Positions 1-34,300 of a stretch of 64,000 nt of DNA are shown one piece after another. Source of the DNA: Eukaryota sp. GEM-RC1 (taxonomy: Eukaryota); the NCBI GenBank assembly GCA_040285855.1, contig JAUFOQ010000004.1, positions 1,240,001 to 1,304,000 on the forward strand, in the 5' to 3' direction. The position numbers and the translations under genes were made by a program. The notes beneath the pieces were generated by a model that ran no database searches, was not told where the DNA came from, and worked only from the letters and a program-made list of their open reading frames with translations. How positions within the stretch are numbered: position 1 is the stretch's first letter; each line of letters starts with the position of its first letter.

Positions 1-3000
1 TCACGTGATTCTTGATGACGTGTTAGTTTCTGAGTTCCAATTTTCACCCAATGGTTCCATAACTTGTCATTCTGATGTTTCGATGAGAAATGCTGTCGGG
101 CTTTCTGATGTTTCTTTCACTTTCAACAATACATTGGCTCTCCTTGATTCAACTGTTAGGATTGCCCCTCTGTTTGTTCTCTTTGATTTTCAAACTATGT
201 CCGGGTTTGGTACTATTGATACTAATATTTTAAATTTTGGAAAAATTCGTCCTTCATCTACCTTCACTTTTAACGACAACCTTTCTCTTGCTCCTTCTTC
301 AATCATCTCTCTTCAAATCAGTAACGACAGTTCTTCTACTCATTTAATTGTTGGTTCAACTGCTTATTTAGATGGAATACTAGAAATTGAATTTGACACA
401 AAGTCTGACTCAACCAGCTATAAATATACTCTGATAGAGTCTGATCAAATTAATGGAAGATTTAGAAGCATAATTAATCCTTGTGCTTCACTTATAACCA
501 CCTTTTATTCAAAGTCTTCTCTAATTGTCTCTGTAAATGATTTTGTAGTCGACTTACAACAAGGTTCTTACGTTTCACCTAGTGGTGTTGATGACTCTTG
601 TTGTGGTACTTTTGACAGTCCTTGTGCGTCTTTTAAAGGAGTTTTAGAAAGAATGGGAAGAAAAGGGAAGGTTTATTTCCATAGTGGTTACTATTTCTTC
701 AATCAAGGTTTCGGCAAATTAATTGATGTTGATTGGGAAGTTATTGGTCTCGGTGACGTGATCATTGATGGAAGTGATGATACTTTACTTGATAATGTTT
801 CGTCTTCTTTGACATTCCATAATTTAATTATCTACGGTAAAAATGTTGTTCTTGAGGTTTCTAATTCATCAATCAATTTTGATTTCGTGAGTGTTCTTTC
901 CATCTCTAATGATAGCCTGTTTTTGATTGAAAATTCCTCTTTTACTACAACAAACTCTCTGTTTGACATTGAATCTTTTCGTCTATTTGAATGTCTCAAA
1001 TCTTCAATTTTCGTTGACAATTCTTTTTTTTCCGGATCATTGTCTGACTCGTTAATCTCGTTGTCATCATCATCAATGATTGTTGACAATACAATTTTAA
1101 ACAACTTGAATGTTAGTAATTTGATTGTTTCTTCCACATCATCTATTAAAGTTAATCATTCCTCCATATCGCACGTAACTGCTAACACGGTATTTCTATT
1201 AGATCAGTCTGATATTGTCGTGAATATTTTAAGTATTGCATTTTTTTTTATAGTAGCTCCTCAACTTTTTCTCTAAACACTGTCGAAGTTGACCAATCAA
1301 TTTCTACTGTGTGGTTCAGTTTAGTCAATTGTAAATTTCACTTACAGAATTTGAATTTCTCAAATACTCACGGTGATGCTTTCAGTGTCGAAAATTCGAC
1401 AGCCTCCTCTTTATCTATGGTTTTGGTTGTTAATTCCAATCTATCCCACTTTCTCAACGTCTTAAATTCAGGATTGTCCATCAACTATTAATAATTATAC
1501 TCATGATGAAATTTCTGTGTATATTCCGTACCTTTGTGATATCACTTCTGTTACTTCTGATATTTATTTAGTTGTTGGGAACCAAATTAGTAACTCCTTT
1601 CAATTAAATTTTGCTCCTCCACAAGTTAGTTATCAGCCAGTACCGCTGTCTCCTTCTGGGGAATTAATAGTATTAACAGGACCTTATTTCTCAAAAATGT
1701 ATCATTGTTTTCAAAATTCATCTCTTGAATTGTCTGTTCATACTGCTTCATACGAAATTATTGATGAAGATGAATTGCAAATTTCAACAGGTGACTTGTA
1801 TGGAATTACTGAATTTGCAATTTCAGTAGAATTTTTCCTTCAATTCATTCGCCTAATTTCAATACCTGTCACTTCATTTGTTGCTAACAATACTGACTAT
1901 GTTTGTTTTGTCGGCGTTCCGTGTTCAATTACAATTTATAGTTTTCTGGACGACTTTTCATTTGTTAATACTTTTATTGGGCTAAATTCTCCGAACTCTC
2001 TTCATATTTCAAATTACCAAGTATCACCATCTTTTGCTGAAGTTACATTTACTTCTTTTATTTCTCGAGTTCCAACTGAATTACGTATTTGTATTAATTC
2101 TGCGTGTTACTCTATTTTCAATCTTCCTTTTATTGTCTCTCCCTCCTATATCTATCCCAAAAATATTCAATGGTTTGATAGGCCAGTTACTCACAGCCTG
2201 TCTATCGAAATAGAAGGAATTGATTTCTATGATGTTTCAATTATTCAAAGTACTTTCTCATTCAGTAATTCTGCTTTTCAATTAATTACAGTTGATGAGT
2301 CTACGGTTTACTTCGATGTAGAGTTTACTAGAACAGGGAACTTCACCCTACAGAGTCTGTCTTTTGGACATTTAAGTGATCATCTTTCTGTGGAGATTGC
2401 TAATTTTGTTCTTTTTCCACCAAAACTGTATTTTAATTCTGTTGTTGAGTGTTATCTGCTTGAATCTATCAATGATCTCTTTATCTCTTATGGAAGTAAT
2501 ACCTTCCCTCTTCACCAAGGAGTAAATATTTTAAATATTGAAAGTGCTAGTTCTTGGATTACTTTATCTAGTCTGTCAGAATCAGTCAATATTTGTTCTA
2601 TTTCTTCTTTTCCTAATGAAAACATTCCTTCAGTAATAGAAATCAATCTTTTTCAAACAATTCAAATTTAAATAACTGATCCCAATTATTTGTATTCAGT
2701 AGAGTGTTCTGATAATTGTGAATTGAGTACTTCAACTGATAATTCATATCACATTGAAATTATCTTTGTTGGATTAGATGAAGGAAACATTGATATTTCC
2801 TTCGTTGTTTGGTATTTCCAATCAAATTTCAATTTTGTCCATCATGTTTCGGTTCACCAACCTCCAGTACTGGAATTGTTGACCTCCTCTGTGATTTCTC
2901 TTTCCAATCCTCAAGCTATCATGATCTCTTTTAGTAGTGACTTCTTTCCAGATTCCATTTTCTTGGTTAATGATCTTATTTTAAATGCTACTGAAGTTAA

Positions 3001-5807
3001 TGACGTGTCGAGTTCTAATTTTGAATTAACTTACTTGTTTAATATCTCGTCATTGCACTTTTCAAAAGGACAAAGCTATCACCACTGGTCTTGGAAACAG
3101 TCTGGATTTAGCTTACAACACGTTGGTGTTATTGTTGTTTTCGATATTGAGGCTTTGTCTACAGATTTTGTAAGTGTTTTTGAACACCGTACAATTTCAT
3201 TAAATATTGTAGGTAATTTATACTCCGATTTAACTTGTTCTATTGACTCTCAACAATTCACAGGAATTACTTCTAACAATTCTTTGTTCTGTGAAGATGT
3301 CATTATTCCAACATATCAAGAGTTTGTTGATCTAGAACTTTCTTTTGATGGGGTACTCATCAACTCAGTTGAAATTCAAGGAGAAGCATTTCTCGAAGAT
3401 GTCTGTTTTGTTTCATTTGTCGAACATCCTAGGATTAATTTTACTAACACTTTTACGAATAACTTAATGTTTGATGGTATCAGGTGTTGTAATGTTGACG
3501 TGTCTTTTTGTTCCGAATTTATCTCGCAATTTGACTTGATCAATGCAATGTTTGATACTTCTTTTGATATATTTCAAATTGTGATTACTACAAACACTAG
3601 TTGTCACGAATCCTATTATTACCTTCCTTTTGAACTGATTGCTAAAAATCAAACGCTTTCCCCTGCATATTCTTGTAAACAAGTTCCCAGTGGTTTTGCT
3701 TTTGCTTCAATGTGTACTATTGATCTGGTAATTCCACGAACAACTGAAATTCTTTTAGTTGCTCTTGAAAATCTGTTTATATTGGAATTAGAAATTTATG
3801 GGCATGTATCAGATTCTTGTTTTAAACCCTTTTCTTTTGGACGTGGTATTACTGCTCTTGGGGAAGTGATTGATGAAGATGTATATCTGGGGTTTGAAAC
3901 TGCATTGTTTAACTCAACGGTACAGTTTGAATCGTTTATTTCTCAGAAAGAAATGTTTTGGTCCACTTCAACTGTTCAATTTTCTACTGGTTTCTCCTCT
4001 CCAAATTGTTTCTACTCATTTACACCTTTTCTTGTGACTCTGTCTGCTTCTGATCCGACTTCTTTGGTTTTCAGTCAAACAATTGTTGAAGTCAATTCAA
4101 ATTATTTAAGTATTTCAATTCCCATGGTTTGCGTCGATAATGTTGGATTTTTTGTTGATTGCAATGGCTCTATTGACATTATCGCCTCTACTTTTAAATT
4201 CAATTCTGTCGTTTTCTTTTCAGATAATGTAATCTTCTTCTTTAATGAATTACCTCAATTACAGGAACATCGAGTTGATTACGAATTCAATTCCAGACTT
4301 CTTAATTGGAATGGCACGTTAGTTCAAAACTGTGCAGAATATTTAACTGTCGATCAATTGAACGTTTCCTATTGTGGTCATCAATATTATGGAGACCAAT
4401 CATGTACTCTTTTGAACATTACCTCAAAGTTTGTAATTCAGGAACAGTTCTACAATCTTACTAGCGAAGTTCTTCTTTCTGATATTACTCTAGTTACTGA
4501 CATTGAAGCTGGTATTAATATTCTAGATGACCGTTTGCTGGAGTTAGTCACGTCTCCACTCCAATCAATGACGATTACACTCTCCTATTTTTCTCATACT
4601 GCGACTATTGATCTAGTTTCAAATGATTGTCACTTTCCTAAATTGAATTCTGGACATGGATGTTTGTGTCCAAAAGGAATGGAATTTAATTATCTTGGTG
4701 AATGTGTGGAATGTTTTCTAAATTATTACTCAAATTCAGAATTCAATTCAGAGTGTAGATCTTGTCCTTTTCCTAGAATTACTCTTCAAAAAGGTTCTAG
4801 TGATCTTGACCATTGTGTTTGTCCTTTAAACACTCTAGATTCTATAGATTCTTGTTTACCTTGTCCTCATTTAGCTGAATGTGGATATGGAAATTTGACT
4901 GGAATTGAACCTGGTTTTAGATTAAATACTGATACTTGGGAACTAGATGAATGTGTGTTTTGGTATAGTTGTCATGAAAATTCTTGCAGATCACGTCATG
5001 CTTATGGAGATTTGTGTCAATATTGTACTGAAGATGCTGTTTTCAGCAAGATTTACTGTTTTAGTAATGAAAATACTTGGTTAAAAGTATTATCATTTAT
5101 TTGTTTCGTTTCTATTTTATTTGTTGCTGATAGGCTACCTGTTCAACTTTCTCTTGTTGATTCAAAGTTCAAGTATATTGAACTGGCAGCGTCATCACTT
5201 TCCACATTTGGTCAAAGGAGATTATTAGAACAGCTTTCGAACTACTTTAATATTCTTAATATCTTCTTTTTGTTTTGCCTCCGATTTTCTTCCGCAGGGT
5301 GTCTATTTGGGGTATTGCTATTGAATTTATATCTTCTATATTTCATTTTGATTCGTCACGAATATTGATTGTTTTTGTTCTGGTCTCACTGTGTGGACTT
5401 TCAAAAGTTGTATTATCACAATTTTTTAAAAGTTCTAATTTCAATGTGAGACATAGTGCTTTCTTACTGGGAGCGGTTCTTTTCTCTATCAATTTTCTGT
5501 TTGGTGCATCACTTTTTTTTCTTAATCATGAAGGGCCATCATTTTGGCAAATTCTATTCCTGAGTTTTCACTTGAGTTTTTTAACTTATGTGTTGGTAGT
5601 ACAACGTCATTCTCCTTATTTCTTATCACTGGTATGTTATTTTGTCGTCATTTTTGCTTCATTATTTGAGAGTTCAATTTATTCTATAATTCAAAATCTC
5701 ATAGTAGTTATACTTATCAGTTTCTCCACTACTACTATTGAGGTAATTCTTTTGGAATTTCTCTTCTTTTTAGTGTGTCGTATACTGTTAGTTTCTTGAA
5801 ATTGTAG
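1..5807 (+). pseudogene. Giant surface-protein paralog A (5' part outside window): CCGTFDSPC region, TIG-like and stalk type 1, Cys-rich block, TM type 1; damaged
   Basis: ORFs 5-1276, 1309-1491, 1517-2671, 2690-5368 and 5275-5799 are collinear with copies B and C. Out-of-frame ~1.3 kb deletion at 1486/1487, a small deletion near 1235, and in-frame TAA at 2669-2671 where C has GAA. The true stop is probably TAG 5805-5807 (…FLKL*), as in B, after restoring one T near 5750. Confidence 0.85.
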
Positions 5808-5832
5808 ACTTTAGAGCATTGTTTATTGGCTC
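5808..5832 (+). repeat. Conserved 25-nt element right after the stop codon (ACTT-x-x-GAGCATTGTTTATTGGCTC)
   Basis: Same sequence at 19430-19454 (+) and 28360-28384 (-); flanks diverge beyond it. Confidence 0.85.
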
Positions 5833-6843: not shown

Positions 6844-9800
6844 ATGTTCTTGACCGTTCTCCTTCTATTCTTTTGCTGTTGGGCACATCCATCTGTTTAT
6901 CGCTGGAGTGCCACAGCTGGGTCTTTGGTTCGACAGTGACAATTGGGAAACTGCTACAGTCCCTTCATCGTCTTCTTATGTCATCATTCCTCCTCAAACT
7001 GTTTCAAGTAGGGTAGTTATTGCGTCAAAAGTCGATATAACCTCTCTCACAATTTCCTCTAATGTTGTGCTTCTTTTCACGAACAACTCCACACTCACAG
7101 TTTCTGAACAGTTTTCTATCATCAATGGATGTACCTTGAGTTCTGATCATACTTCTCCTCTCTCATTTTCTTCTGTAAAATCTCTTGAATTGGATTCTGT
7201 GGACCTTGTTACTTTCTCTTCTCACAAACTCATAGTCACTGGTCTCTTTGACTGGAAACGTGGTTCAATTGATCTACATGGGTTCAGTGAACTTGTTCTC
7301 GTCAATTCTACTTCCGCTTCCCATTTTACAAGTCATTCTCCACTAAGTTCTGATCTTCTTCATGTCTGGGGATTTAATCCCGAAGGTCATCTTGGAGGTG
7401 GCTTGCAAGAATCTTCTGATGGTATATCTCCTGAATCTTATACTTTACCTGATTCTATTAGACAAGCTTCTCTTGGAAGAATCCATTCTATGATACTTTT
7501 GATTAATGGTGACGTTTACACTGCTGGAAGTAATACTTTTGGAGAACTTGGATTCAATGGTGGCGGAAGAAATATTCATGGTAAAATTGATTTATCGCAC
7601 ATTATTCAAATTATTTCATCATCTGAATCAAGTTATGCGTTAAGTGTGTCAGGATCTGTCTATTCTTGGGGACGTAACAGGAATGGCCAGTTAGGTATAG
7701 GAGATCGACTAATCAGACATACCCCCACTTTAATTCCAAATTTAAGTAACATTAAACAAATTGCTGGTAGGTATCTAACAGTTTTTGCTTTAACTAGAAA
7801 TGATGAAGTTTATGGGTGGGGTGCTGGGGCCAACAATGTTTTATGTAGTGATAGTACTAGTAATGTTCTTTCACCGTTGCTAATTGAATCTTTACAAAAT
7901 ATTAAATTTGTTGCTGCTGGCCTCAGTTCCTTCTTTGTTAAATCTAATGGATCGACTCTTACTTGTGGTTTAAGATTAGGTGAGACTGGATTCTATTCAA
8001 CTCCAACTCCATTTGCTAAGGATATTGAGTTTACGTTTATTGATACTATATATCTTCACGCTCTTGGCATTGATGTTAACCAGAAGCTATGGAGTTGGGG
8101 TTCGAATAGTCTTGGACAATTAGGAACTGGTGGGAACGCGGCTTCTGCAAGTCCGGTTCAAGTAACAAACATCGGGAAAGTCATCACGTCAGCTGCAGGT
8201 TGGGGACATTCTATTGCTGTTGACGTCAGCAATGACGTGTGGTCTTGGGGTTATCCAGAGGAGGTGTTGGGTAGGAGTTTTCCACCAAATTTGAATGAAT
8301 CAAATCCTGGCTTGATTCCTGGTTTATCTCCTATTATTTCCGGAATTAGTGCATATCATGGGAGCAATTTCGCATATTCTTCAGTTTCGGTTGTTGTGAA
8401 TTCAGTGGGGTCGTCTTCAAGTAACTCTAAAATGATTTTAAAAGGAAATAATGACATCTTGGGAAAAGTTAATGATAATGGCCTTCAACAGTTTAATCTT
8501 ATTTCTGTTCCAGTTTTTCTTTCTGGTTCATTGAATTTGACAAGTGATTCTTTCTATTTTCTGTCTGAATTCAATTTAAGTGGGCTTTTGTCTATTAATT
8601 CTCTAGTGGAAACTTATTTCACTTCATTTTTCTTAGGAGCTTCTGAATGTTCAACTCTTTCTTTAGAGTCTAATGTTTTTGTTGAAACTTTGTATTGTTA
8701 TTGTGGAACAATTGAAGGTGTTGGAGAATTGACAGTAAACACGTTGGTGTTTTGTTCTTCTAATCCTGAACTAAAATTAAGTAGAATTTCTATTGGTAAA
8801 ATGATGACTTCTGAATTAAATGTTGAATTTAATCTGACTACTGATTTATTAATTTCTATCAATGGAATACTTAAAATATCACAGGTAACTTTCTACTCTG
8901 ATTCGGATGTAACTGTTACTTTTGGTGGAAATTTAAAGTTGGTCAACACTTCATTGACTCTTCACATCGATTCTCGGCTAAATTCAAATATTCAATTTGA
9001 CCAAAATTCTAAAATTCAAATCACTTCCTCTTCTTCTAGTCTTGGATCAGTATATCCATTGTTTCTTTATTATGACTGGTCAGAAAGTCCTTCTGGAGAT
9101 GATCTTTCTGGTAATAATAATAATGTACTAGAAGTTTCTGGTGCTCAATGGAATCCTGATGGTTATTACCAATTTGAAATTGCCACTAACGTTATCAAAG
9201 TTCCAAATATTTCAGGTAAATTCGGCTGGGCATCAGCTACAATTTCATTTTCAATATGGTTTGACTCTGATTCTACCAATAGATTTGGATTTATTACTAA
9301 TCCTTCTGGTTGTGGATTAGTCCTTGGAGATCATTTATCTTTTGGTGATAAAACTATGAAAGATCTGTCAATTCCAAGAAATCAATGGATCTCCTTGATT
9401 GTTACTACAGATCATAATGGAGCTCAAATGTATGTTAATGGAGCTCTGATTGCTTCTGTCAACGGCAAGTATGGCTGTGATGAGTTTTCTGATTTCTTCC
9501 CCCTGGGATCTGTCTATTACAAGAGTGGGAATGACTGGGTAGGCTCTTCTGATCAGTTTTTTAAGGGTAGAATTAGAAGAGTTGCTGTTTTTACAGAGAA
9601 ACTTTCTGAAAGTGAAGTTGAAGCGCTGTCTAAAACTCAATTAGTATCGTTAACTCAAATATTTGGTGACGGAAGTATGGTTATTGAAAACTCTTCATTT
9701 CGCGTAAACTCATTGTCGACATTAAGTTTAAACAGTCTTTATTCCTATAATTCTTCTTTATTTATTGTTCCATCTGCTTTCTTTGGAGTCGTCAATACTG

Positions 9801-12800
9801 TTGCCAAAGAAGATTCAACCATTGAAATCCATGGCCGTTTCCTTTCTTCTGACTTCTTCCTTCCCAATCTTGAGTTAGAGAGTTCTTCATTTATTTCAAC
9901 TACTTTAGAGCTTCATTTTGATGTTATTTCTTTTTTAAATAGTGACTTTAGTTGTGACTGTTATTTAGAGGCTTTAGTTGTCTATTGGTTTGATGGTATC
10001 TTGACTCTAAGTGAAGCCAAAGTAAACGTCATCAATCTTTATGGTAACGAAAAGGTTTTACTAATAGAATCATTGACAATTACAGAGGAGGTGTTTTTTA
10101 ATAATTCTCTTACATTACATTCAAATAATTCTCAATTAATTCTTGATTCAGTAATTGTCAAGTGTACTGCGTTATCCTCTCTTTTCTTGTCTTGTTCTTC
10201 TGACTGTACTTCTGCTGAATTAAAATTTTCCAATGCTTTTGTATTGTCTGAATATTGTTCATTTGTTTCTAACTTTGATATCTCAAACTGCGCACTGTTC
10301 AGTCTGTTTTCATATTCCTTTTCCAAACAGAGTCTGTATTTACTTCTCACAATGTCCTTCAAATTGACGAACACGCAGAATTCTCTGTTGTTTCGTCCGA
10401 GTTTTCAATTGAAAGTGTCATTGATTCGTCTGACCCGTCCTTATTTATGTACTACAACTGGGCATACTCACTGAATAAAATAGACTTATCAGGAAATCAT
10501 GGTCTCAGTGCAATCATAATTCATGGGCCAGTATGGGAAAGTGATGACAATGGTGGTTATTTGAAAATCACACCTGGTAATACATTACTTATCCCAAACC
10601 TTCCTGGTGCCACAGGTTGGACGGGAACAACAATATCCTTATGGATGAACATTCAAGCAGGGGGTTTGGGACTGGATTTTGGTGGGTCATGTCGATTGAC
10701 TATTGAGCCTAAACGAGTTTGTTGGGGCACATTGTGTTCAACTGTACATTTTCCAACAACTTGGTTCCATTTGGCAATTAAATTTAGTCCATTCGATTCT
10801 TTAAGAACCATGCCTCGGGTTTTTATCGATGGAAGCTATAGAAATTCTATTGGTGCAGGGCATGGATATCATTGTACCAACCCTCCATCTCATTTCTCAC
10901 TATCAAGGATTCATCCTTCGGGTTCACAATTTCGGGGTATGATTCGTGCAGTTCAAGTGTTTCGCAGAATTTTATCAGCTCAGGAGATAGCCAACTTAGA
11001 ACTTAGCTTTCCAGCAGGGGTTTGGGGTCAAGGAAAGTTCTCTTTTATCAACTCTCATTGTGTTCTTTCTTCCATGTACTTTGAAATCCGCTATATGTCA
11101 TTAAATTCGTCATTCTTTCAATCAGGAGCCGTTATGCTTAGGCATCTTGAAGAACTTGACCTTAGTTCTAATTCAGAGATTGTCTTTGTTCATAGTCACG
11201 ACTTTGACTTTGATTCTACTGGTCTTGTTGTCTTTTTAGACTCAAGCAAACTTCGTTATGAAGTAATTGATTCTGCAACCAAGGTTCTTATTGATTCAAT
11301 TTATCTAACAAATACTTCTTCAATTATTACTGATGCGTCGCTTGTTATAAGTACTTTTCATTGGTTTCAGGGTGCGTTGTTTTCCCCTGGTGTTACATCC
11401 TTACAAAGACTGTTTCTTTATGGTGATTCTAAAACATGGGTTGCGGATTCGTTGATTATTGAAAATGAATTGTATTTCAATAATTCTCTTTCTTTTTAAT
11501 TTCTCATCTCAAGTTAATTACTGTTTCAGTTACTTGTTTTCCTGGTTCAGATCTTGTTCTTAATTCATCACTTTTTAATGAACGTTTACTTGAAATCAAG
11601 AACCATTTTCATTTAACTTCTAATTGTTCTCTCACTTCATTGTTACCAGTTCAAAGTACTGGAATTATTACTGTTTCAAATGACTCGATAATGACTCTTA
11701 AGAAGGCATGGGAACATAATCAAGGGGAGTTTCTGGGATTGGGAGAATTACGTTTACAACAATCTAAAGTGTGGCTTTTGGATGTTGTCTTTGGCATCAG
11801 ATCTATTACTTCTTCATCATCTATTTTAAATTTTGATAATTTAAATATTCAGGATACTGTTCTATTTGAAATTAGTGATTATTCGTCGCTCACTTTGTCG
11901 TCTACTCTAGAAGTTTCAACTGGTCACTTGACAATAGCTCTTATCGACAGTGAGCTCTTCTTTAATCAATCAGTGATCTCATCATCGTCAACAATTTGTT
12001 TAGCTGCATTCCATAGTTTTGTTCAATTGATGATGCCGCAATTTCATTTTGATTCTGTTAATTTCAATTTATCCATACTGGAATTGGTCAATAGTAGTGA
12101 CATTGTTGTTGAATCATTGTCATGTATTGATTGTTTTGTCCTTGGAACTCATCTGCTCTACGTTAACCATAGTTCATACATCAATTCGGGAAAGTTCTCT
12201 CCCTTTATACTTGTTTCTGAATATGCACAATGTTCATTCATTACTGGTCAAGTCTATTTGACTCACTCATTTGATTTCTACAGTCACGTGATTCTTGATG
12301 ACGTGTCAGTTTCAGAATTCCTGGTTTCTAGTGGATCCATCATTTGTCATTCTGATGTTTTGATGAGAAATACTGTGAGTATTTCCAATGTTTCGTTCGT
12401 TTTCAAAGACACATTGTCTCTTTTTGATACAATTTTTCTTTTTGATCCGCTCCTTGTTCTCTTTGATTTTCAAACAATGAAAGGATTTGGCACCATTGAT
12501 ACTAATATAGTTAATTCTGGAATTATTCGTCCATCACCTTATTTCAAATTTAACGACAACTTGTCTCTTTCTACTTCTTCCATCATCTGTATTCAAATCA
12601 ATAACACTACTTCTTATGATCATTTAATTGTCGATTTAACTTCTTTTTTAGATGGAATACTAGAACTAGAATTTGAGACAAATTATGATTCAACTGGGGA
12701 TAATTATACTCTCATAGAATCTGGTCTAATTAATGGTAAATTTAGTAATATAGTCAATCCTTGTGCTTCACTTATAACCCCGTTTTATTCAGAAACTTCT

Positions 12801-15800
12801 CTAATTGTCTCTGTAAATGATTATGTAGTGGACTTAAATCAAATTTCTTACATTTCTCCTTCTGGTATTGATGATCCTTGTTGTGGTACTTTTGACAGTC
12901 CTTGTGCTTCTTTTAGAGGAGTTTTAGAAAGAATGGGAAGAAAAGGAAAGGTTTATTTCCACGAGGGAACTTACACTTTTGATCAAGGATTGGGAATAGT
13001 ACGTGATGTTGATTGGGAAGTGATTGGTCTCGGTGACGTGATTATTGATGGAAGTGATGAGACTTTATTTGATATTGTTTCGTCTTCTTTGACATTCCAA
13101 AATTTAATTATATACGGTAATAATGTTCTTTTTGAGGTTTTTAATTCATCAATCAATTTTGATTTCGTGAGTGTTCTTTCCGTCTCTAATGATAGCATGT
13201 TTTTGATTGAAAATTCCTCTTTAACTACAACAAACTGTCTGTTTGACATTGAATCTTTTCGTCTATTTGAATGTCTTAAATCGTTAGTTTTTGTTGACAA
13301 TTCTATTTTTTCTGGATCATTATCTGACTCGTTAATCTCAATGTCATCATCGTCAATGATTGCTGACAATACTATTTTTCGTTACTTGAATGTTATTAAT
13401 TTGGTTGTTTCTTCTTCATCTTCTATTGAGTTCAGTCATTCATTAATAATGGAGATTACTGCTAACATGATATTTCAATTGGATCAATCAGATATTGTCT
13501 TAACGTCTTTAAATTGTTCTTCAGTCTTTTCAAAAGCCTTTGTTTACAGTAGCTTCGGAGCTTTTGTTCTAAACGCTGTCGAAGTTGACACATCAATTTC
13601 TACTATGTGGTTCAGTTTAATCAATTGTACATTTCACTTACAGAATTTGAATTTCTCAAGTTCTGATGGTGATGCTTTCAGTGTCGTAAATTCGACAGAC
13701 TCCTCTTTATCTATGGTTTTGGTTGTTAATTCCAATCTATCCCACTTTCTTAACGTCTTGAATTCAGGACTTTCCATCAACTCTCTTTCTCTTTTCAACT
13801 GCACAGGAAGTATACTAGAACATTCTGTCAGTAGCTCAATTACTACTCAGAATTTGACCATTACTGATTCATTATTTGATACTTTGTTTTTATTATCAGA
13901 TTCGTCCTTGAGTTTATCTTTGGGTAACATTGGGTCATCGTCGTTTAATAATAGTACACTTGTGCTTTATAACTCTACCCTGGAAATGGAAGAAGTTACC
14001 ATTGATTTGGTTTCAACTTCTATTTTCTTAGAGTCAATAGATAGTAATAGTACTTTTGAGAATTTTGTAATACGTAATTATGAGTTTCTCCAGTTTTTGG
14101 TTCTAACTCGATCCAAAACTAATTTTTTCTCTCTGTTTTTGGATAGTTGTCAACTTTATGAATTAAATCTTTTAGTGTATGATATTACTTTAACTGAGTC
14201 CTATCTAACACTTAAAAAATCTAATATTTCTGGATGTGCTTCTAATCAAGACTTTAAGTTGAGTTTATATTCAGAAAAGTCTTACCTATTCTTTCTTAAT
14301 TTTGACCAAGAATTCTTCTTTTCTTCATTAGTTTTAGACCATTCTAATATCACTATAATTTCATATTTCCCAGTAATTTCTAAGTCTGTTTCAATTGATG
14401 AAGAGTCTATTATACTGGGTAATGCTCCATTACTTGATCTTTCCAGATTAATTTCAAATGTTTCAATTTTTCCTTCACAACACTGCTGTAACACGTCTTT
14501 CTGACAAGTTTCTCTGAATTTTAATAACATCGAATATCTGTCAGAGTTACTGGAACTCACAGTCCCTAATAATGATGAATTCTCCCACAACTTTGTATTG
14601 AATTCTCTTGACTTCTTTTCAATGATGTTATTTCTTTCAATCCAACGAACTATTCTATTTGTTTTAATTTTACTATTTCTAGAATATTTTCGTTCCAACA
14701 TTTATTTATCCCCATTTGTCCTATTGAGTTTGTTAGTCTAGAACCTCCAACTAGAGGTGGTTTTGTACCACTTTTGCTTTTAATCTTGGGTTAGATCCTA
14801 TTGTTATTCATCATTCCACTGCTTTGATCAATCAAAGTCTTGAATATTCTTCAAATTATCATGAGTATTTGAACTTCTTCTTTTTGAAGGTCATGGTTGT
14901 CATGAAATGGTTCTTTCTAGATTAACTGATGCAGAAATTTTATATTTTAAATATTGTTTCAAACGTGCTCATATTCAAACTAGTTTTCCCAATCCTTTCC
15001 CTTTAACAGGACTATTGACTATTACAGCAACAGATTTCTCCACAAATTTTGAATTTTTTGCTATTCTTTCAAGCTTTTCTCAAGCGGAACTTCGTAATTA
15101 TACACACGAAGAAATTATTTTACACATTCCCTATATTTGTAATATCACTTCCACTGAATTTGACGTTTATTTAATAATCGGAAATCAGTCTAGTAATTCT
15201 TATCAACTCAATTTTGGTCCGCCAAGAGTTACTTATCAACCTATTCCTCTTTCTCCTTCTGGTGAAACTATTCTTTTACGTGATTCAAATTTTTCAAAAA
15301 TGTTGAACTGTTACCATAACTCATCTATTGAATTTTCAGTTAGTAGTGCTACTTTTGAAATAGTGCTTGATGATGAAGTAAATGTTAGAACTGGTTAATT
15401 GTATGGATCAACTGCGTTTGTAATCGATATCCAGTATTTTAAGGATTTCAATTTTTAATTTCTATTCCGGTCACGTCATTTGTTGCTAGAGATACCCCAT
15501 TTGTTTGTTTTGTCGGTATTGCTTGTGAAATTGAAGTTTATAGTTATCAGGAAGAATTCTCGTTTCTTGAAACTTATATTGAACCCAGTGTTCCTGATAG
15601 TATATATTTTCTTTATTTTGGTTCAAATGTTTCTTCTGCTTTTGTGACATTTATTTCTTATGTTCCTGGATTTCCACAAGATTTGAAAATTTGTGCACAT
15701 TTTGGATGTTTTTCTATTTTTAACTTACCTTTTGTTGTTGAACCGGCTTATTTATCTCCAAATCATTTCCAATGGTTAAATGAGCCTATAACTACCGAAG

Positions 15801-18800
15801 TTCTGGTTGAAGTTGAGGGCATTTCATTTTACAGTTTCTCTGTAATCCAAAACAGTTTTTATTTTGACAATTGTCCATCTTTGTTATCTTATCTAAGTGA
15901 ATCTTACATGATCTTTGATATGGTGATTTCTCAAATAGGAAATTGTTTATTAGTTGGATCTTCTTTTTAAATATTGTCCCATTCAACATGTCCATTGAAA
16001 TCAAGAATTTTATTATTTTTCCACCAGAGGTTAGATTTAATTCACAAATTCAATTTGTACTTAGTGAAGATATTTCTCATCTCTTCATAACACACGGAAG
16101 TCAAACTATTTCCGTACGGAATGGTGCCAATATTTTAAATTTGAAGGATTCTGACACCTTCATTACTCTTCACAGATACTCTCAGTCAATGAATGTCAGT
16201 TTTGTTACTTCTTTCATTTACTCATTAATTCCTGATGTGATTGAGGTAAATCACCCTCAATCCATTTTTATTGATCAAAACACCTTATTGTATGATTTAG
16301 ATGTCAGTTGTTCTGGTAACTGTGATTTGGCTTTGGATCATCTTCCGAACTCCACTATCAAGGTTTCTTTTACTGGTATTGAACCTGGATCAATTGTACT
16401 GGAGTTTTACGTCAACTATTATAATTCAAATTTCTACTTCCGAATCCCAATATCAGTAGAAAGACCTCCTGTATTTGAACTTTTAAGTCCAAATGTTGTG
16501 TTTACCTCTGTAAATTCTTTAGTTTTCATTCACAGTTACTCACATTTTGATTTGGAATCCTCTTTTCATTTGATGATTCTATTATTGAACCTACTAATGC
16601 TGAGCTCCTCTCCAGTTCTGATTCCTTCTTTGTTTACAGATTTGAACTGAATCTTACTTCCATGTCAGTTCTTGAAGGGGAATATGTCCAAGACCTATGT
16701 TGGAGTCAGATAGGGTTCAGAAGACAATTGGTTACTGAAATTAAAATATTTAATTTGGATTTCAGTAGTAACGATCAGGTAAGTGTTTTTGAACATCGTG
16801 ATATTTCTGTTCACTTCCGAGGAAATCTTACTTCAAAAGTGACTTGTTCTATTGATGGTCAAATCTTCGTTGGAAAAGTTGTTGATAATGTGTTGGTTTG
16901 CAAGAGTGTCCGGCTTCCAACATTTCAACAACACGTGCGTGTTGACGTTTACTATGATCAATTTCTTTTGAATTCTTTTGAACTTTCTGGTGAGGTTTTT
17001 TTGGAGGAGATATGCTTTCAAACATTTCATCATCATCCTTTGGTTAATTCTTCTGAAATTATTTCAAATCAGAACACAAATTTAATATTCGACGGCTCAA
17101 GATGCTGTAGTGTTGATGTTTCCTATTGTTCAGAATTAATGTTAAAAAAAGAATTAGTTACATTCGATTTTCCGTCCCTATTTGACATTCATCACGTTAT
17201 TATCACGTCTAATTCTAGTTGCGAAGATATTGATTTTGGACTTCCTTTTGAACTGATCGCCAATGATCACGCTATTTCACCTTCTATTATTTGTAAGCAA
17301 ATTCCTAGCGGATATTCCTTCGCATCAATGTGTGAGATAGATGTAATTTTTCCAAATACTTCTGAGATTACTCTAGTAGCTCTAGAAGATGTTTACTTAC
17401 TAGAAGTAGAGTTTTATGGATACAAATCTAATTCTTGTTTTAAACCTTTTCATGGGGAAAAGGTGTTACTTCACTAGGAGAAGTAATTGATGAAGTTGTT
17501 TATTTGAGATTTAATAATCAATCGTTTGATTCAATTTCAGAATTCAAACAATTCGTAATTGATAAGTCAACGTTCTGGTCATCGTCATTTCTTACTTTTC
17601 CCACTGAGTTGTATTCTCCTTATTGTTATTATTCTACTGTTAGTTATCCAACTGTTTTGACTGCTTCATCAGCATCATCTTTTGTCTTTCTAGCTGATGT
17701 AGTAGAACTAAATCCACAATTTTTAAACATTTCTATCCCAATTATTTGTGTTGATGCTTTAAATTTCATTGTTCACTGTAGTGATATGTTTACAGTAACG
17801 ACGTCAACATTTGAATTCTTGAATTTTGAATTTTTAAACAATTCATTGATTTTCTCTTTCCTGAATTTGATCAAACTAGGAGAACATTCATTATCAATGA
17901 CTTATGGGCAAAGTCAATTTTACTGGAATGGGATTATTGTTCAAAATTTCAATGAAATATTTGAAATTAGTGATTTGAGAACTAGTAAGTGTGATCATCA
18001 TTTTACTTTAGTTAATACGTGTACATCATTGGACTTTGCGTCCACATTAATAACTCAAAATCCTTTTACTAATCAATCGAAAATAATTTTGATGTCAGAT
18101 TTAAGTATAGATCTTGAGTTTGATACTTCAGTCCTGCATGTTGTTAATGGATCAACTTTGGAGATTATTGGACCTCCACATCAATCAATGACGATTACAC
18201 TTTCCTATCTGTCCCAATCTACTACTATCGATTTAGTTTCAAATGATTGTCACTTTCCTAAATTGAATTCTCGACATGGATGTTTATGTCCAAAAGGAAT
18301 GGAATTTAATTCTCTTGGTGAGTGTGTGGAATGTTCTTTAAATTATTACTCACATTTTGAATTTAATTCAGAGTGTAGATCTTGTCCTTTTCCTAGAATT
18401 ACTCTTCAAAAAGGTTCTAGTGATCTTGACCATTGTGTTTGTCCTTTAAACACTCTAGATTCTATAGACTCTTGTTTACCTTGTCCTCATTTAGCTGAAT
18501 GTGGATACGGAAATTTGACTGCAATTGAACCTGGTTTTAGATTAAATACTGATACTTGGGAACTAGATGAGTGTAATTTTTGGTTCAATTGTCATCAAAA
18601 TTCTTGCAGATCACGTCATGCTTATGGAGATTTGTGTCAATATTGTACTGAAGATGCTGTATTTAGCAAGATTTATTGTTTTGGTATGGAAAATACTTGG
18701 TTAAAAGTACTATCATTTCTTTGTTTTACTTCTATTTTGTTTGTTGCTGATAGATTAGTTATTCGACTTTCTATTGTTGAATCAAAGTTCAAGTATATTC

Positions 18801-19429
18801 GACTGGCAGCGTCATCACTTTCTACATTTGGTCAAAAAAGATTATTGGAACAATTTTCAAATTACTTTAATATTCTTAATATCATCTTTTTTGTTTTGCC
18901 TCCGATTTTCTTTCGTAGGGCGTCTATTTGGGTGATTTTCATTGAATTTTTATCTTCTATATTTCATTTTGATTCGTCACGAATGTTGTTTGTTGTTTTT
19001 ATGGTCTCAATGTGTGGACTTTCGAAAATCGTATTATCACGATTTTTTAAAATTTGTAATTTCAATGTGAGACATAGTGCTTTCTTACTAGGAGCGGTAC
19101 TTTTCTCTATCAATTTTCTGTTTGGTACATCACTTTTTTTTCTTAATCATGAAGGGCCATCATTTTGGCAAACTGTATTTCTGAGTTTTCACTTGAGTTT
19201 TGTAATTTATGTGTTGATAGTACAACGTCATTCTCCTTATTTTCTATCACTAATATGCTACTTTGTAATCCTTTTTGCTTCTTTATTTGAGAGTTTAATG
19301 TATTTTATAATTCAAAACCTTATGTTAGTTTTGCTTATCAGTTTCTCCACTACTACTATTGAGGTAATTCTTTATGGAATTTCTTTACTTTTCAGTATGC
19401 CGTTTACTTTTAGTTTCTTGAAATTGTAG
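6844..19429 (+). pseudogene. Giant surface-protein paralog B, full length (~4,190 codons): signal peptide, RCC1 propeller (~7360-8380), LamG (~9060-9640 and ~10443-11030), beta-solenoid, TIG-like, stalk type 2, Cys-rich, TM type 1
   Basis: ATG 6844 gives MFLTVLLLFFCCWAHP (signal-like). RCC1 motifs VYSWGRNRNGQLGIG and LWSWGSNSLGQLGTG; LamG motifs WISLIVTTD…MYVNG…FKGRIRRVAVF. About ten homopolymer frameshifts plus two in-frame stops: TGA 14502-14504 (TGT in C) and TAA 15396-15398 (TCA in D). Confidence 0.85.
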
Positions 19430-19454
19430 ACTTGTGAGCATTGTTTATTGGCTC
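19430..19454 (+). repeat. Conserved 25-nt post-stop element (copy B)
   Basis: ACTTGTGAGCATTGTTTATTGGCTC; matches 5808-5832 and the reverse complement of 28360-28384. Confidence 0.85.
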
Positions 19455-19690
19455 AAATTGTGGTTCCGATCATAGTTGGGATTCTTCATTTTTGTCATTG
19501 ATTCCTTAATTTTTTCGACTACACGTACACTTCAAGAAACGGTTAGACTAATATGTCTTATTTTTTTGAAAAGTGCTCTTGTGAGACTAAATTTGACCTG
19601 ATATTTCATAATACACCAACTATTATTTCTAAGTTATTTCCAAATGTTTCCTGTAACACTAAGGTATAGTGTATTGTTGATGAAGACATA

Positions 19691-28359: not shown

Positions 28360-28384
28360 GAGCCAATAAACAATGCTCTCAAGT
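28360..28384 (-). repeat. Conserved 25-nt post-stop element (copy C)
   Basis: Reverse complement ACTTGAGAGCATTGTTTATTGGCTC, directly after TAG 28387-28385. Confidence 0.85.
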
Positions 28385-31300
28385 CTACAATTTCAAAAAA
28401 CTAAAAGTATACGACACACTAAAAAGTAGAGAAACTGCAAAAGTATTACATCAACAGTAGTTGTGGAGAAACTGATAAGTATAACTATGATGAAATTTTG
28501 AATTATAAAATAGAATAGGCTCTCAAATGATGAAGCAAAAATGGTGACAAAATAGCATACTAGTGATAAGAAATAAGGAGAATGACGTTGTACTATCAAC
28601 ACAAAAATTAAAAAACTCAAGTGAAAACTCAGAAATACAATTTGCCAAAATGACGGCCCTTCATGATTAAGGAAAGAAAGTACTGTGCCAAACAGAAAAT
28701 TGATAGAGAAAAGTACCGCTCCAAGTAAAAAAGCGCTATGTTTCACATTGAAATTGTAATTTTTAAAAAATCTTGATAAAACGACTTTCGAAAGTACAGA
28801 CAGTGAAATCAGCACAATAACAAACAACATTCTTGACGAATCAAAATGAAATATAGAAGATATAAATTCAATAGCAATCACCCAAATAGACACCCTACGG
28901 AAAAAAATCGGAGGCAAAACAAAAAAGACGACATTTAGAATATTAAAGTAGTTCGAAAGCTGTTCTAATAATCTCTTTTGACCAAATGTAGAAAGAGCCG
29001 ACGCTGCCAGTCGAATATACTTAAACTTTGATTCAACAAGAGATAGTTGAATAATCAATCTATCAGCAACAAATAGAATCAAAATCAAGCAAATTAATAA
29101 TATCACCTTTAACCAAATATTTTCCTTACCAAAACAATAAATCCTAGAGGAAAAAGCTTCTTCAGTACAATATTGACACAAATCTCCATAAGCATGACGT
29201 GATCTGCAAGAATTTTCATGACAACTATACCAAAACACACATTCATCTAGTTCCCAAGTATCAGTATTTAATCTAAAACCAGGTTCAATTCCAGTCAAAT
29301 TTCCATATCCACATTCAGCTAAATGAGGACAAGGTAAACAAGAATCTATAGAATCTAGAGTGTTTAAAGGACAAACACAATGGTCAAGATCACTAGAGCC
29401 TTTTTGAAGAGTTATTCTTGGAAAAGAACAAGAACGACATTCTGAATTGAATTCTGAATTTGAAAAATAATTTAGAAAACATTCCACACATTCACCAAGA
29501 TAATTAAATTCCATTCCCTTTGGACACAAACATCCATGTCCAGAATTCAATTTAGGAAAGTGACAATCATTTGAAACTAGATCAATAGTCGCAGTATGAG
29601 ATAAATAGGATAGTGTAATCGTCATTGATTGGAGTGGAGACGTGACTAACTCCAGCAAACGGCCATCTAGAATATTAATACCAGCGTCAATGTCAATAAC
29701 TAGAGTAATATCAGAAAGAAGAACTTCGCTAGTAAGATTGTAGAACTGTTCCTGAATTACAAACTTTGAGGTAATGTTCAAAAGAGTACATGATTGGTCT
29801 CCATAATATTGATGACCACAATAGGAAACATTCAATTGATCGACATTTAAAAATTCTGCAAAGTTTTGAACTATCGTTCCATTCCAATTTAGAAGCCGGG
29901 AATTGAATTCGTAATCAACTCGATGTTCCTGTAATTGAGGTAATTCATTAAAGAAGAAGATTACATTATTGGAAAGGAAAACGACATAATTGAACTGAAA
30001 AGTAGAGGAAATAATCGAAATAGAACCATTACAGTCAACACAAAATCCAATATTATCGACACATTTTATGGGAATTGAAATATTTAAATAATTTGAATTG
30101 ACTTCAACAATTGTTTGACTGAAAACCAAAGAAGTTGGATCAGAAGCAGACAGAGTCACAAGAAAAGGTGTAAATGAATAGAAACAATTTGGAGAAACGA
30201 AACCAGTAGAAAATTGAACAGTTGAAGTGGACCAAAACATTTCTTTCTGAGAAATAAACGATTCAAACTGTACCGTTGAGTTGAATAATGAAGTTTCAAA
30301 CCCCAGATATACATCTTCATCAATCACTTCCCCAAGAGCAGTAAAACCACGTCCAAAAGAAAAGGGTTTAAAACAAGAATCTGATACATGCCCATAAATT
30401 TCTAATTCCAATATATACAGATTTTCAAGAGCAATTAAAATAATTCCAGTGGTTCGTGGAATGATGATGTCAATAGTACACATTGAAGCAAAAGCAAAAC
30501 CACTGGGAATTTGTTCACAAGAATATGCAGAAGACAGCGTTTGATTGTTAGCAATCAGTTCAAATGGAAGGTAATAATAGGATTCGTGACAACTAGTGTT
30601 TGTTGTAATCACAATTTGAAATATATCAAAAGAAGCATCAAACATTGCATTGATCGAGTCAAATTGTGAGATAAATTCGGAACAAAAAGACACGTCAACA
30701 TTACAACACCTGATACCATCAAACATTAAGTTATTCGTAAAAGTGTTAGTAAAATTAATCCTAGGATGCTCGCCAAATGAAGCAAAACAGACATCTTTGA
30801 GAAATGCTTCACCTTGAATTTCAACTGAGTTGATGAGTACCCCATCAAAAAAAAAGTTCTAGTTCAACAAACTCTAGATAAGTTGGAATAATGACATCGT
30901 CACAGAACAAAGAATTGTTAGAAGTAATTCCTGTGAATTTTTGAGAGTCAATAGAACAAGTTAAATCGGAGTATAAATTACCTTCAATATTGAAAGAAAT
31001 TGTACGGTGTTCAAAAACACTTACAAAATCTGTAGACGAAGCCTCAATATCGAAAACAACAATAACACCAACGTGTTGTAAGCTAAATCCAGACTGTTTC
31101 CAAGACCAGTGGTGATAGCTTTGTCCTTTTGAAAAGTGCAATGACGAGATATTAAACACGTAAGTTAATTGAAAATTAGAACTCGACACGTCATTAACTT
31201 CAGTAGGATTTAAAATAAGATCATTAACCAAGAAAACGGAATCTGGAAAGAAGTTACCACTAAAAGAGATCATGATAGCTTGAGGATTGGAAATAGAAAT

Positions 31301-34300
31301 CACAGAGGAGCTCAACAATTCGAGTACTGGAGGTTGGTAAACCGAAACATGATGTACAAAATTGAAATTTGATTGGAAATACCAAACAACGAAGGAAATA
31401 TCAATATTTCCTTCATCCAATCCAACAAAGATAATTTCAATGTGATATGAATTATCAGAAGAAGTACTCAATTGACAATTATCAGAACATTCCACTGAAT
31501 ACAAATAATTGGGATCAGTTATTTCAATTTGAATTGTCTGGAACAAATTGATTTCCACTACTGATGGTATGTTTTCATTAGGAAAAGAAGAAATAGAACT
31601 AATATTGACTGATTCTGACAGACTAGATAAAGTAATCCAAAGACTAGCACTTTCAATATTTAAAATATTTACTCCTTGGTGAAGAGGGAAGGTGTTACTT
31701 CCAGTAGAGATATAGAGATCATTGACAAACTCAAGCAGATAACAATCAACAACAGAATTATAATAAACTTTGGGTGGAAAAACAACAAAATTAGCAATCT
31801 CTACAGAAAGATGTTCACTTAAATGACCAAAAGACAGACTCTGTAGGGTGAAGTTCCCTGTTCTAGTAAACTCAACATCGAAGTAAACCGTAGACTCATC
31901 AACTTTAATTAATTGAGAAGCAGAATTACTGAATGAGAAAGTACTTTGGATAATTGAAAAGTCATACAAATCAATTCCTTCTATTTCGATAGACAAGCTG
32001 TGAGTAACTGGACTATCAAACCATTGAATATAGTTGGGATAGATATAGGAGGGAGAGACAATAAAAGGAAGATTGAAAATAGAGTAACACGCAGAATTAA
32101 TACAAATACGTAATTCAGTTGGAACTCGAGAAATAAAAGAAGTAAATGTAACTTCGGCAAAAGATGGTGATACTTGGTAATTAGAAATATGAAGAGAGTT
32201 CGGAGAATTTAGCCCAATAAAAGTATTAACAAATGAAAAGTCGTCCAGAAAACTATAAATTGTAATTGAACACGGAACGCCGACAAAACAAACATAGTCA
32301 GTATTGTTAGCAACAAATGAAGTGACAGGTATTGAAATTAGGCGAATGAATTGAAGGAAAAATTCTACTGAAATTGCAAATTCAGTAATTCCATACAAGT
32401 CACCTGTTGAAATTTGCAATTCATCTTCATCAATAATTTCGTATGAAGCAGTATGAACAGACAATTCAAGAGATGAATTTTGAAAACAATGATACATTTT
32501 TGAGAAATAAGGTCCTGTTAATACTATTAATTCCCCAGACGGTGAAAGTGGTGGTGCTGGGAGATAACTAACTTGTGGAGGTGCAAAATTAAGTTGAAGA
32601 GAATTACTAGTTTGGTTCCCAACAATTAAATATACTTCAAAAGTATTAGAAGTGATATCACAAATATAGGGAACATAAAAAGAAATTTCATCATGAGTGT
32701 AATTATTAATCACAACTTGAGAGAAACTGAAAGACAGCGAAAAGTATTCAAAAGAGGTGGAAAAATCAGAACCATATATTGAAAAATGACCATGTAAATG
32801 GAAAGGATCGGTTGACAGGGACGAAATGACAGGTTTCTTGAAACAGTAATTGAAGGAAATTATTGAAGAATCTGTAGATCGAGAAAGAATCATTTCATGA
32901 CAACCATGACCTGCAAAAAGGATAAATCCAAATATTCATCATTATTTGAAGAATATTCAAGACTTTGATTGATTGAAGCTGTTGAATGATGAATAATAAT
33001 AGGATCTAACCCAAGATTAAAAGCAAACAGTGGTACAAATCCACCTCTAGTTGGAGGTTCTAGACTAACAAAATAAATAGGACAAACAGGAATGAATAAG
33101 TTGTGGAATGAAAATATTCTAGAAATAGTAAAATTAAAACAAATTGAATTATTCGTTGGATTGAAAGAAATAACATCATTTAAAAAGAAGTCAAGAGAAT
33201 TCAATACAAAGTTGTGGGAGAATTCATCATTATTAGGGACTGAGAGTTCCAGTAACTCTGACAGATATTCGATGTTATTAAAATTCAGAGAAACTTGACA
33301 GAAAGACGTGTTGCAGCAGTGTTGCGAAGGAAAAATTGAAATATTTGAAATAATTCTCGAAAGATCCAGTAATAAAGCATCACCAAGTATAACAGAATCT
33401 TCATCAATAAAAACAGACTTTGAAATTACTGGGAAATCTGACATTATATTGATATTAGAATGATCTAAAACCAATGAAGAAAAGAAGAATTCCTGATCAA
33501 AATTAAGAAAGTATAGGTAAGACTTTTCTGAATATAAACTCAACTTAAAGTCTTGGTTAGAAACACATCCAGAAAGATTAGAATTTTCCAGTGTTAGATA
33601 CGAGTCAATTAAAATAATATCATATACTAAACTATCTAAATCAGAAAGTTGACAACGATCCATTAACAGAGAGCGAAAATGAGTTTTGGACAGAGTTAGA
33701 ACCAAAACTGGAGAAACTCATAATTACGTATAACAATATTCTCAAAAGTACTATTACTTTCTATAGACTCTAGGAAAATAGAAGTTGAAACCATATCAAT
33801 GGTAACCTCTTCCACCTCCAGGGTAGAGTTATAAAGCACAAGTGTACTATTATTAAACGACGATAAACCAATGTTACCCAAAGATAAACTCAATGACGAA
33901 TCTGATAATAAAAACAAGGTATCAAATATTGAATCAGTAATGGCCAAATTCTGAGTAGTAATTGAACTATTAACAGAAGATTCTAGTATACTTCCTGTGC
34001 AGTTGAAAAGAGAAAGAGAGTTGATGGACAATTCTGAATTCAAGATGTTAAGAAAGAAGGACAGGTTCGAATTCTCGACCAAAACCATAGATAAAGAGGA
34101 ATCCGTCGAATTTAAGACACTGAAAACATCACCGTGAGTCTTTGAGAAATTCAAATTTTGCATGTGTAATTTACAATTGATTAAACTAAACCACACAGTA
34201 GAAATTGATTGATCAACTTCGACAGTGTTTAGAGAAATAGTTGAGAACGTACTATAAACAAAGTCTTTTGAAAAGACTGAAAACATAATTAAATTATTCA

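What the first reader, a model, noticed from the sequence alone, without database searches (positions are those of the whole stretch)
1655..2158. Recent gene-conversion-like tract shared by damaged copy A and intact copy C
LSPSGELIVL…SPSYIYP (~170 aa) is identical in A and C (~32540-32037). I noticed only a couple of silent base changes (GCT/GCC, TCA/TCT), whereas the sequence just upstream is clearly diverged (YLCDITSVTSDIYLVVG versus YICDITSNTFEVYLIVG). Inference: recent exchange between a pseudogene and a functional copy about 30 kb apart in inverted orientation.
Basis: partly seen in the sequence, partly recalled or inferred. Interest (0 to 1): 0.7.

Follow-up and report, generated by a model that had tools for sequence, protein, structure and literature searches.

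The report
Copied patch between giant surface-protein genes
Two copies of a very large predicted cell-surface protein gene, lying 30 kb apart on opposite strands in what is likely an anaerobic protist, share a 506-base stretch with only two silent differences, most likely because one copy recently overwrote the other, an ordinary process that appears to recur among the five copies here, although an assembly error is not excluded.

Summary
Window 1655-2160 matches copy C (32539-32034, minus strand) at 504 of 506 bases; both differences are silent and 171 residues are identical. The 5' edge is sharp (silent divergence about 13/36 sites before it, 2/117 inside). The 3' edge is soft: the next 1.9 kb is still 95% identical, and silent-only scans do not clearly separate the tract from that stalk. 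It is the longest of many patches among five paralogs (A-E) of a ~3,950-residue predicted membrane protein (RCC1, LamG, IPT/TIG-like stalk, cysteine-rich repeat, about six hydrophobic helices). Its only relatives found are from a Skoliomonas-type metamonad. A's nearest copy switches between E, C and B along the gene, which points to recurrent ectopic gene conversion. The 'pseudogene versus intact' framing is only partly supported. A has lesions unlike sequencing errors, but C as assembled has seven 1-bp breaks in T-runs (likely long-read errors). Neither the direction nor the timing relative to A's inactivation can be determined. No reads were available, so a polishing artefact remains possible (~17%). 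Known process, undescribed family: low interest.

The parts
1655..2160 (+). Near-identical tract in copy A (504/506 with C); encodes most of a predicted IPT/TIG domain and the next predicted Ig-like domain
   Evidence: domain type (prediction)
32034..32539 (-). Matching tract in copy C
1..5832 (+). Copy A (5' part outside the window); homology to C and B ends about 35 bp after the stop codon
1241..1242 (+). 16-bp deletion in A relative to B, C, D (frameshift; stop at 1274-1276)
1486..1487 (+). Junction of a ~1.31-kb deletion in A (C 34018-32711 missing), 168 bp upstream of the tract
1487..1654 (+). Diverged upstream flank (pS 0.36, pN 0.11 against C), ending in four consecutive codons with silent differences
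2161..4100 (+). Rest of the A/C stalk, about 95% identical to C in patches
2669..2671 (+). In-frame TAA in A (GAA in C, GAT in B and D)
4796..5034 (+). Second exact A/C tract, 239 bp (C 29397-29159); overlaps a 104-bp exact A/B tract at 4745-4848
425..581 (+). 157-bp exact A/E tract (E 62109-62265)
28360..40252 (-). Copy C: ~3,950 codons; predicted signal peptide, RCC1 repeats, two LamG domains, stalk, cysteine-rich repeat, six hydrophobic segments; seven 1-bp breaks in T-runs, no nonsense codon found
6860..19455 (+). Copy B (different stalk type; in-frame stops at 14502 and 15396, 2-bp deletion near 6919)
45851..59024 (+). Copy D (B-type stalk; 2-, 10- and 5-bp deletions in the 5' half)
60559..64000 (+). 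Copy E (large internal deletion inferred from blast pieces; runs off the window)

Best explanation
The 506-bp tract shared by copies A and C is most likely the footprint of a recent ectopic gene conversion, in which break repair in one copy would have used the other, 30 kb away and inverted, as template. Shown: the tract; its sharp 5' edge at silent sites; a two-level patchwork of A/C divergence (about 14% and 2.5%); and changing nearest neighbours among five paralogs whose homology stops at the gene ends. Inferred: A and C are old paralogs (pS about 0.25-0.35 in unconverted parts), kept similar by repeated short conversions, of which this is the longest near-identical one. In the stalk, C is A's only close partner in the window, because B and D differ from A by about 36-39% over these columns. 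Inverted orientation would let conversion happen without deleting the DNA in between. Not determinable: donor versus recipient, and whether A was already broken at the time.
For: Longest run 356 bp, reached in 0/5000 shuffles. Four-copy GENECONV-style scan on all polymorphic sites: 0/1000. Silent sites 13/36 upstream vs 2/117 inside, Fisher p 7e-8; next 540 bp 16/116, p 4e-4 (boundaries chosen after seeing the data). Pairwise silent-codon scan over the whole A/C alignment: 14-17/5000. B and D differ at 97/505 bases over the same columns, so the DNA is not intrinsically frozen. The upstream flank is about as conserved against outgroup P0001 (69-73%) as the tract (76%), yet A and C differ strongly there. 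A two-state HMM beats one state (BIC 2929 vs 3060). Neighbouring informative sites are more compatible than shuffled (0/2000, 103 sites, A50-1486). Segment trees group A+E (99), C+E (99), A+C (100), A+B (83), A+C (85) (5 of 9 trees, windows picked post hoc). Exact patches also join pairs that are 10-16% apart (A/E 157 bp, A/B 104 bp). Flanks do not align between copies.
Against: Silent-only four-copy scans are weak: 256/2000 and 77/2000 for 1487-5250, and 1022/2000 and 963/2000 for the stalk alone. The pairwise silent scan on the stalk alone gives 257/5000 and 487/5000. The tract protein is more conserved against outgroups (76%) than the downstream stalk (51-60%), so constraint explains part of the identity. 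Differences in low-divergence patches have the same pN/pS (0.46 vs 0.43) and no higher transition share (41/90 vs 181/339, p 0.19) than diverged patches. They look like thinned relics, which partial overwriting in a read consensus could also give. The neighbour-compatibility test was weaker at the 3' end (57/2000, 199/2000). The copies carry many probable homopolymer errors, so the assembly is imperfect in these repeats.
Confidence: 0.68

Rival explanations
1. Assembly artefact: reads from C (or from copies missing in the assembly) were mixed into the consensus of A, or of both copies, during long-read consensus or short-read polishing, erasing real differences in patches.
For: Seven 1-bp T-run breaks in C, some at the same column in diverged copies (C+D twice, B+C once; also B+D once), look like systematic long-read errors left uncorrected. 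T-runs of 5 or more are fewer than an independent-base model expects (143 vs 174, 36 vs 70, 6 vs 28; codon use could also cause this). The nearest named relatives were assembled from R9.4/9.5 nanopore reads with Nanopolish and Unicycler correction and are 28-55% repetitive (PMC11316075, sections 6 and 17); whether the window was made the same way is not known. Residual differences in low patches resemble a thinned sample of the old ones.
Against: Inference: reads map best to their own copy when copies differ by 6-14%, so overwriting is hard to start. A polish able to rewrite about 25 or more substitutions should also have fixed the T-run breaks. Patches join many different pairs at different residual levels (0-6%), including pairs 10-20% apart. 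Both residual differences are silent.
Confidence: 0.17
2. No separate 506-bp event: the whole A/C stalk (about 1655-4100 or further) was copied once. The tract is its most constrained and luckiest part, and the diverged patches (for example 1487-1654, 4112-4228, 5031-5324) were brought in later from other copies elsewhere in the genome.
For: The stalk is 95% identical. With mismatches allowed, the best A/C fragment extends to 1660-3623. Silent-only scans within the stalk are not significant or borderline. The tract protein is the most conserved part against outgroups. A carries more derived bases in 1487-1654 (10 vs 5 polarised by B=D).
Against: All-site shuffles within the stalk never reach 356 bp (0/5000). 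Amino-acid changes are 0 in the tract vs 60/1515 sites downstream (p 2e-6) and silent changes 2/117 vs 40/417 (p 0.003, post hoc). About 14% is the commonest A/C level and holds over long stretches. This rival still needs gene conversion.
Confidence: 0.12
3. Purifying selection or a DNA-level function alone keeps the stretch identical, with no exchange.
For: The tract protein is relatively conserved (76% to P0001), and both differences are silent.
Against: Silent sites are near zero inside and pS is 0.36 immediately upstream. B/D differ by 19% in the same columns, and P0001/P0002 show 3-6 differences per 50 aa there. A is broken. No Rfam family was found in the window.
Confidence: 0.03

Closest known systems
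Gene conversion between Entamoeba igl1/igl2 lectin paralogs (Weedall et al. 2011, PMC3125142; abstract and Discussion read)
   Same: Regional near-identity between paralogous large surface-protein genes of an anaerobic protist, read as non-programmed ectopic conversion.
   Different: That case had orthologs in a sister species to show paralogs closer than orthologs; here no orthologous DNA was available. The protein family is different, and the nearest named relatives here are free-living.
Giardia vsp / pseudo-vsp segmental conversion (Giardia muris genome paper, PMC7641422; three passages read)
   Same: Metamonad surface-protein family with broken and intact copies and signs of recombination or segmental conversion between them.
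   Different: Pseudo-vsp copies form silent, mostly telomere-adjacent arrays, and a few loci dominate expression. Here the broken copies are near full-length neighbours; expression and direction are untested; the proteins are ~3,950-aa multi-pass predictions, not VSP-like.
Trypanosoma brucei VSG mosaic formation and the proposed pseudogene-donor role in Paramecium surface antigens (passages in PMC4235209; VSG details otherwise recalled)
   Same: Fragments copied between surface-gene paralogs can create chimeric genes; the Paramecium paper proposes this for a free-living protist.
   Different: No expression site, fixed donor-to-recipient direction or recombination anchor was shown here; the tract homogenises rather than visibly diversifies.
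Hypothetical proteins of Eukaryota sp. GEM-RC1 (P0001-P0014)
   Same: Same family: P0001 is 65-70% identical to C's stalk pieces; the copies are numerous, cluster by locus tag and are fragmented.
   Different: None is the window's own protein. The family was not found described in six literature searches.

Membership tests
Ectopic (interlocus) gene conversion | Tract of identity longer than chance within diverged paralogs | tested here: met
   0/5000; 0/1000 in the four-copy all-site scan
Ectopic (interlocus) gene conversion | Identity extends to silent sites beyond what constraint explains | tested here: inconclusive
   Met against the upstream flank and the whole A/C alignment (p 7e-8; 14-17/5000). 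Borderline or not met against the stalk alone (257-487/5000; about 1000/2000)
Ectopic (interlocus) gene conversion | Discordant trees along the paralogs | tested here: met
   (0/2000 for A50-1486; weaker at the 3' end)
Ectopic (interlocus) gene conversion | Non-reciprocal, with identifiable donor and recipient | tested here: inconclusive
   The two residual sites polarise one each way; outgroup proteins are too distant
Ectopic (interlocus) gene conversion | Present in the molecules, not only in the assembly | not testable with these tools
   Needs reads or a second assembly, which were not available
Pseudogene-archive antigenic variation (VSG / vsp type) | Silent broken donors next to or apart from an intact copy | tested here: inconclusive
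   A, B, D and E carry lesions other than 1-bp T-run indels and C does not, but silence and C's intactness are unproven
Pseudogene-archive antigenic variation (VSG / vsp type) | Directional flow from pseudogene into the expressed copy | tested here: inconclusive
   Derived changes are balanced between A and C (28 vs 25); the order of tract and lesions cannot be set
Pseudogene-archive antigenic variation (VSG / vsp type) | Mutually exclusive expression and switching within a population | not testable with these tools
   Needs RNA and clone data
IPT/TIG-domain stalk | Ig-like beta-sandwich of IPT/TIG type in the tract | tested here: inconclusive
   No Pfam TIG hit. Atlas hits are TIG clusters at 0.93-0.95 (recognition 2078, below 2300). 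Model pLDDT is 70-90 over the two domains before residue ~205 and under 50 for 206-308. Top Foldseek hits are plexin and MET ectodomains at E 4e-6 to 3e-4 with low TM scores

The most novel reading that the evidence does not exclude
A free-living metamonad runs a VSG/vsp-like system for a ~4,000-residue surface receptor or adhesin: one readable copy (C) is surrounded by broken near-full-length copies (A, B, D, E) that feed it segments by frequent conversion, and crossovers in the inverted A/C repeat flip the 30 kb in between within the population.
Probability: 0.1. Interest if true: 0.65.

Novelty: new member of a known kind. Interest (0 to 1): 0.25.

Why it matters
If real, it shows active homologous exchange among paralogs in a barely studied lineage of anaerobic protists. 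It also marks a large, apparently undescribed family of giant surface proteins that evolves as a mosaic, which bears on whether surface-gene shuffling predates parasitism in metamonads. As a single tract it is ordinary. Practically, it warns that these repeats are likely mis-polished and that gene models of this family are fragments of much longer genes.

Tried and rejected
No whole genome is held for this window, so copies elsewhere in the genome were not examined. The search for sequencing runs listed none; this is no evidence either way, and no reads could be laid. One scan of metagenome contigs with the tract protein gave 300 pattern matches and 0 confirmed relatives. The search of 50%-cluster representatives stayed in the queue and was never collected. 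The first five-copy alignment timed out and was redone in two parts. Introns as the cause of the breaks were considered from the sequence: the GT...AG stretch at A1233-1253/1256 is 21 or 24 nt and would not restore the frame, and C's breaks are single-base differences against open copies; no RNA was available to test this. That the tract equals whole protein domains was considered and not claimed: it starts about 12-14 residues into the predicted second IPT/TIG domain, and its 3' edge is soft. A recent segmental duplication including flanks was rejected because the flanks do not align. Rfam gave 0 matches. Paralogs of the relative: 6 of the 16 pairs over 60% identical (55 pairs aligned) show exact runs at 17/2000 or fewer, but the closest pair P0001/P0002 does not (1189/2000). 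At protein level this cannot be told from constraint, so it was not used as support. Earlier scan notes: none by place or by sequence.

Full report
Observation. A global alignment of window 1-5900 with the reverse complement of 28300-35515 shows 2 mismatches in 506 bp between A1655-2160 and C32539-32034. They are TCA/TCT at codon 2009 and GCT/GCC at codon 2036, both silent. The 171 residues from 1646 to 2158 are identical. The four codons at 1643-1654 all differ silently, so DNA identity begins at 1655. Upstream (1487-1654), 11 of 55 residues differ and pS is 0.36. The tracts are 29.9 kb apart on opposite strands. A 356-bp exact run was reached in 0 of 5000 shuffles of the A/C differences over 1-5750, 1487-5750 and 1655-4100.

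The genes. Self-BLAST shows five paralogs: A (<1-5832, +), B (6860-19455, +), C (40212-28360, -), D (from 45851, +) and E (from 60559, +). C spans about 3,950 codons from a hydrophobic N-terminus to six hydrophobic C-terminal segments. Pfam finds RCC1 repeats, two LamG domains and an ephrin-receptor-like cysteine-rich repeat in C's pieces; the stalk pieces had no hit. The tract resembles IPT/TIG clusters in the Atlas (0.93-0.95, recognition value under the reliable mark). A 412-residue model is confident over two beta-sandwich domains and poor beyond residue 205; its best matches are plexin and MET ectodomains, with low TM scores. Two protein searches returned only hypothetical proteins of Eukaryota sp. 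GEM-RC1 (11 each, best 65-70% identity). A paper on free-living metamonads lists Skoliomonas sp. GEMRC with an N50 equal to the contig length given for P0001 (PMC11316075, sections 6 and 17 and search passages read). The window is therefore likely from a related protist. A role as surface receptor or adhesin is inferred from the architecture only.

Damaged versus intact. A has a 16-bp deletion at 1241, a ~1.31-kb deletion at 1486/1487, an in-frame TAA at 2669 and a 1-bp loss near 5263. C is not open as assembled. It has seven 1-bp breaks (six losses, one gain), each in a T-run of 3-9 bases; the one near 36080 is inferred from the frames, without an aligned homolog. No nonsense codon was found in C. 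Three of C's breaks recur at the same column in D or B despite diverged context, and B and D share another. This is what systematic homopolymer errors would give, so C is probably intact in the cell; that is inference. B has nonsense codons, D has 2-, 5- and 10-bp deletions, and E has a large deletion.

A patchwork, not one tract. A/C divergence is best described by two states, 13.9% and 2.5% (BIC 2929 vs 3060 for one state and 2951 for three). Of 29 exact repeats of 60 bp or more in the window, 10 reach 100 bp: seven A/C, plus A/E 157, B/C 111 and A/B 104. Over A50-1486, neighbouring informative sites among five copies are more compatible than in any of 2000 shuffles; the same test gave 57/2000 and 199/2000 at the 3' end. 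Segment trees join A+E (99) at 321-581, C+E (99) at 1000-1486, A+C (100) in the tract, A+B (83) at 4745-4848 and A+C (85) at 4849-5034; of the other four trees, three had support of 62 or less and one (4554-4744) again gave A+C vs B+D (99). The windows were chosen after seeing the data. Homology ends about 35 bp after the stop codon and flanks do not align. The copies thus look like old paralogs that exchange coding patches.

Selection does not explain the 5' edge. Silent differences are about 13/36 sites upstream against 2/117 inside (p 7e-8), while both regions are similarly conserved against P0001 (69-73% and 76%). B and D differ at 97 of 505 bases in the same columns. The 3' edge is weaker. 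The stalk 2161-4100 differs at only 102 of 1940 bases and is less conserved against outgroups (55-60% to P0001) than the tract. Silent-only scans give 14-17/5000 over the whole A/C alignment but 257-487/5000 within the stalk. A four-copy silent scan gives 256/2000 and 77/2000 over 1487-5250 and about 1000/2000 within the stalk, with only 17 A/C differences to work on. The tract is therefore best seen as the extreme end of a broadly homogenised A/C stalk.

Direction and timing. The two residual sites polarise one each way. A/C differences have pN/pS about 0.4 and split 28 A-derived to 25 C-derived amino-acid changes against P0001. Most divergence therefore arose under selection, and A's loss of function is likely recent. 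The tract spans none of A's lesions, so 'exchange between a pseudogene and a functional copy' is not established.

Artefact. The assembly appears to keep homopolymer errors in these repeats, and the nearest relatives were assembled from R9.4/9.5 nanopore reads with later polishing. Residual differences in low patches have the same pN/pS and transition share as in diverged patches, which fits fine-scale repeated conversion and partial overwriting equally well. Against an artefact: reads should map to their own copy at 6-14% divergence (reasoning, not tested), and patches link many pairs at several residual levels. I put this at 0.17; only reads can settle it.

Comparison and verdict. The case works like the paralog conversion reported for Entamoeba igl genes (PMC3125142, abstract and Discussion). 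It recalls vsp/pseudo-vsp exchange in Giardia (PMC7641422, three passages) and the pseudogene-donor idea for Paramecium surface antigens (PMC4235209, passages). Membership of an archive-type variation system is not shown: direction, silence of donors and exclusive expression are untested or inconclusive. Six searches turned up no description of this family or of conversion in this lineage; only listings were seen for most hits. Earlier scan notes report similar tracts in many prokaryotic genomes (unchecked AI notes, not support). Verdict: a real tract, most likely ordinary ectopic gene conversion in an undescribed giant surface-protein family; new member of a known kind; interest 0.25.

Noticed in passing
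window B 13888-13984, C 33913-33817, D 53485-53581, E 63293-63389: A ~100-bp patch nearly identical in four copies (2-7% apart in that 150-column bin, against 10-20% around it), silent sites included; it lies inside the segment deleted from A. Possibly a conversion sweep or hotspot.
   Followed up: partly
window C 36995 / D 49047; C 34672 / D 52725; B 14874 / C 32926; B 17444 / D 57048: 1-bp losses in T-runs shared at the same column by diverged copies. Three related gene models (P0001, P0006, P0008) start just downstream of the position of the B/C break. Most likely systematic sequencing error; conserved slippage sites are a remote alternative.
   Followed up: partly
window 21267-21437 and 27414-27245: 171-bp inverted repeat (93.6%) on either side of the TmcB-like gene. 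Its translation resembles, from recall, the C-terminal end of a non-LTR retrotransposon ORF; no Pfam hit.
   Followed up: partly
window 21739-25700 (+): Gene with a TmcB TPR domain (E 3e-20), split into two ORFs at 24822/24837.
   Followed up: no
window 42211-43722 (+): Leucine-rich-repeat gene (LRR_6) with internal ~84-bp repeats, between the divergent 5' ends of C and D.
   Followed up: no
window B 10900-11720, C ~36090, D 49900-51300: The 5' halves differ in length by module-sized gaps (C is about 0.7 kb shorter than B and 1.4 kb shorter than D), suggesting gain or loss of repeated LamG-region modules.
   Followed up: no
window 2900-4500 and homologous columns: Two stalk types: A/C versus B/D differ by 35-55% while the 5' region and the cysteine-rich region are shared by all at 2-20%; D has its own membrane region.
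   Followed up: partly
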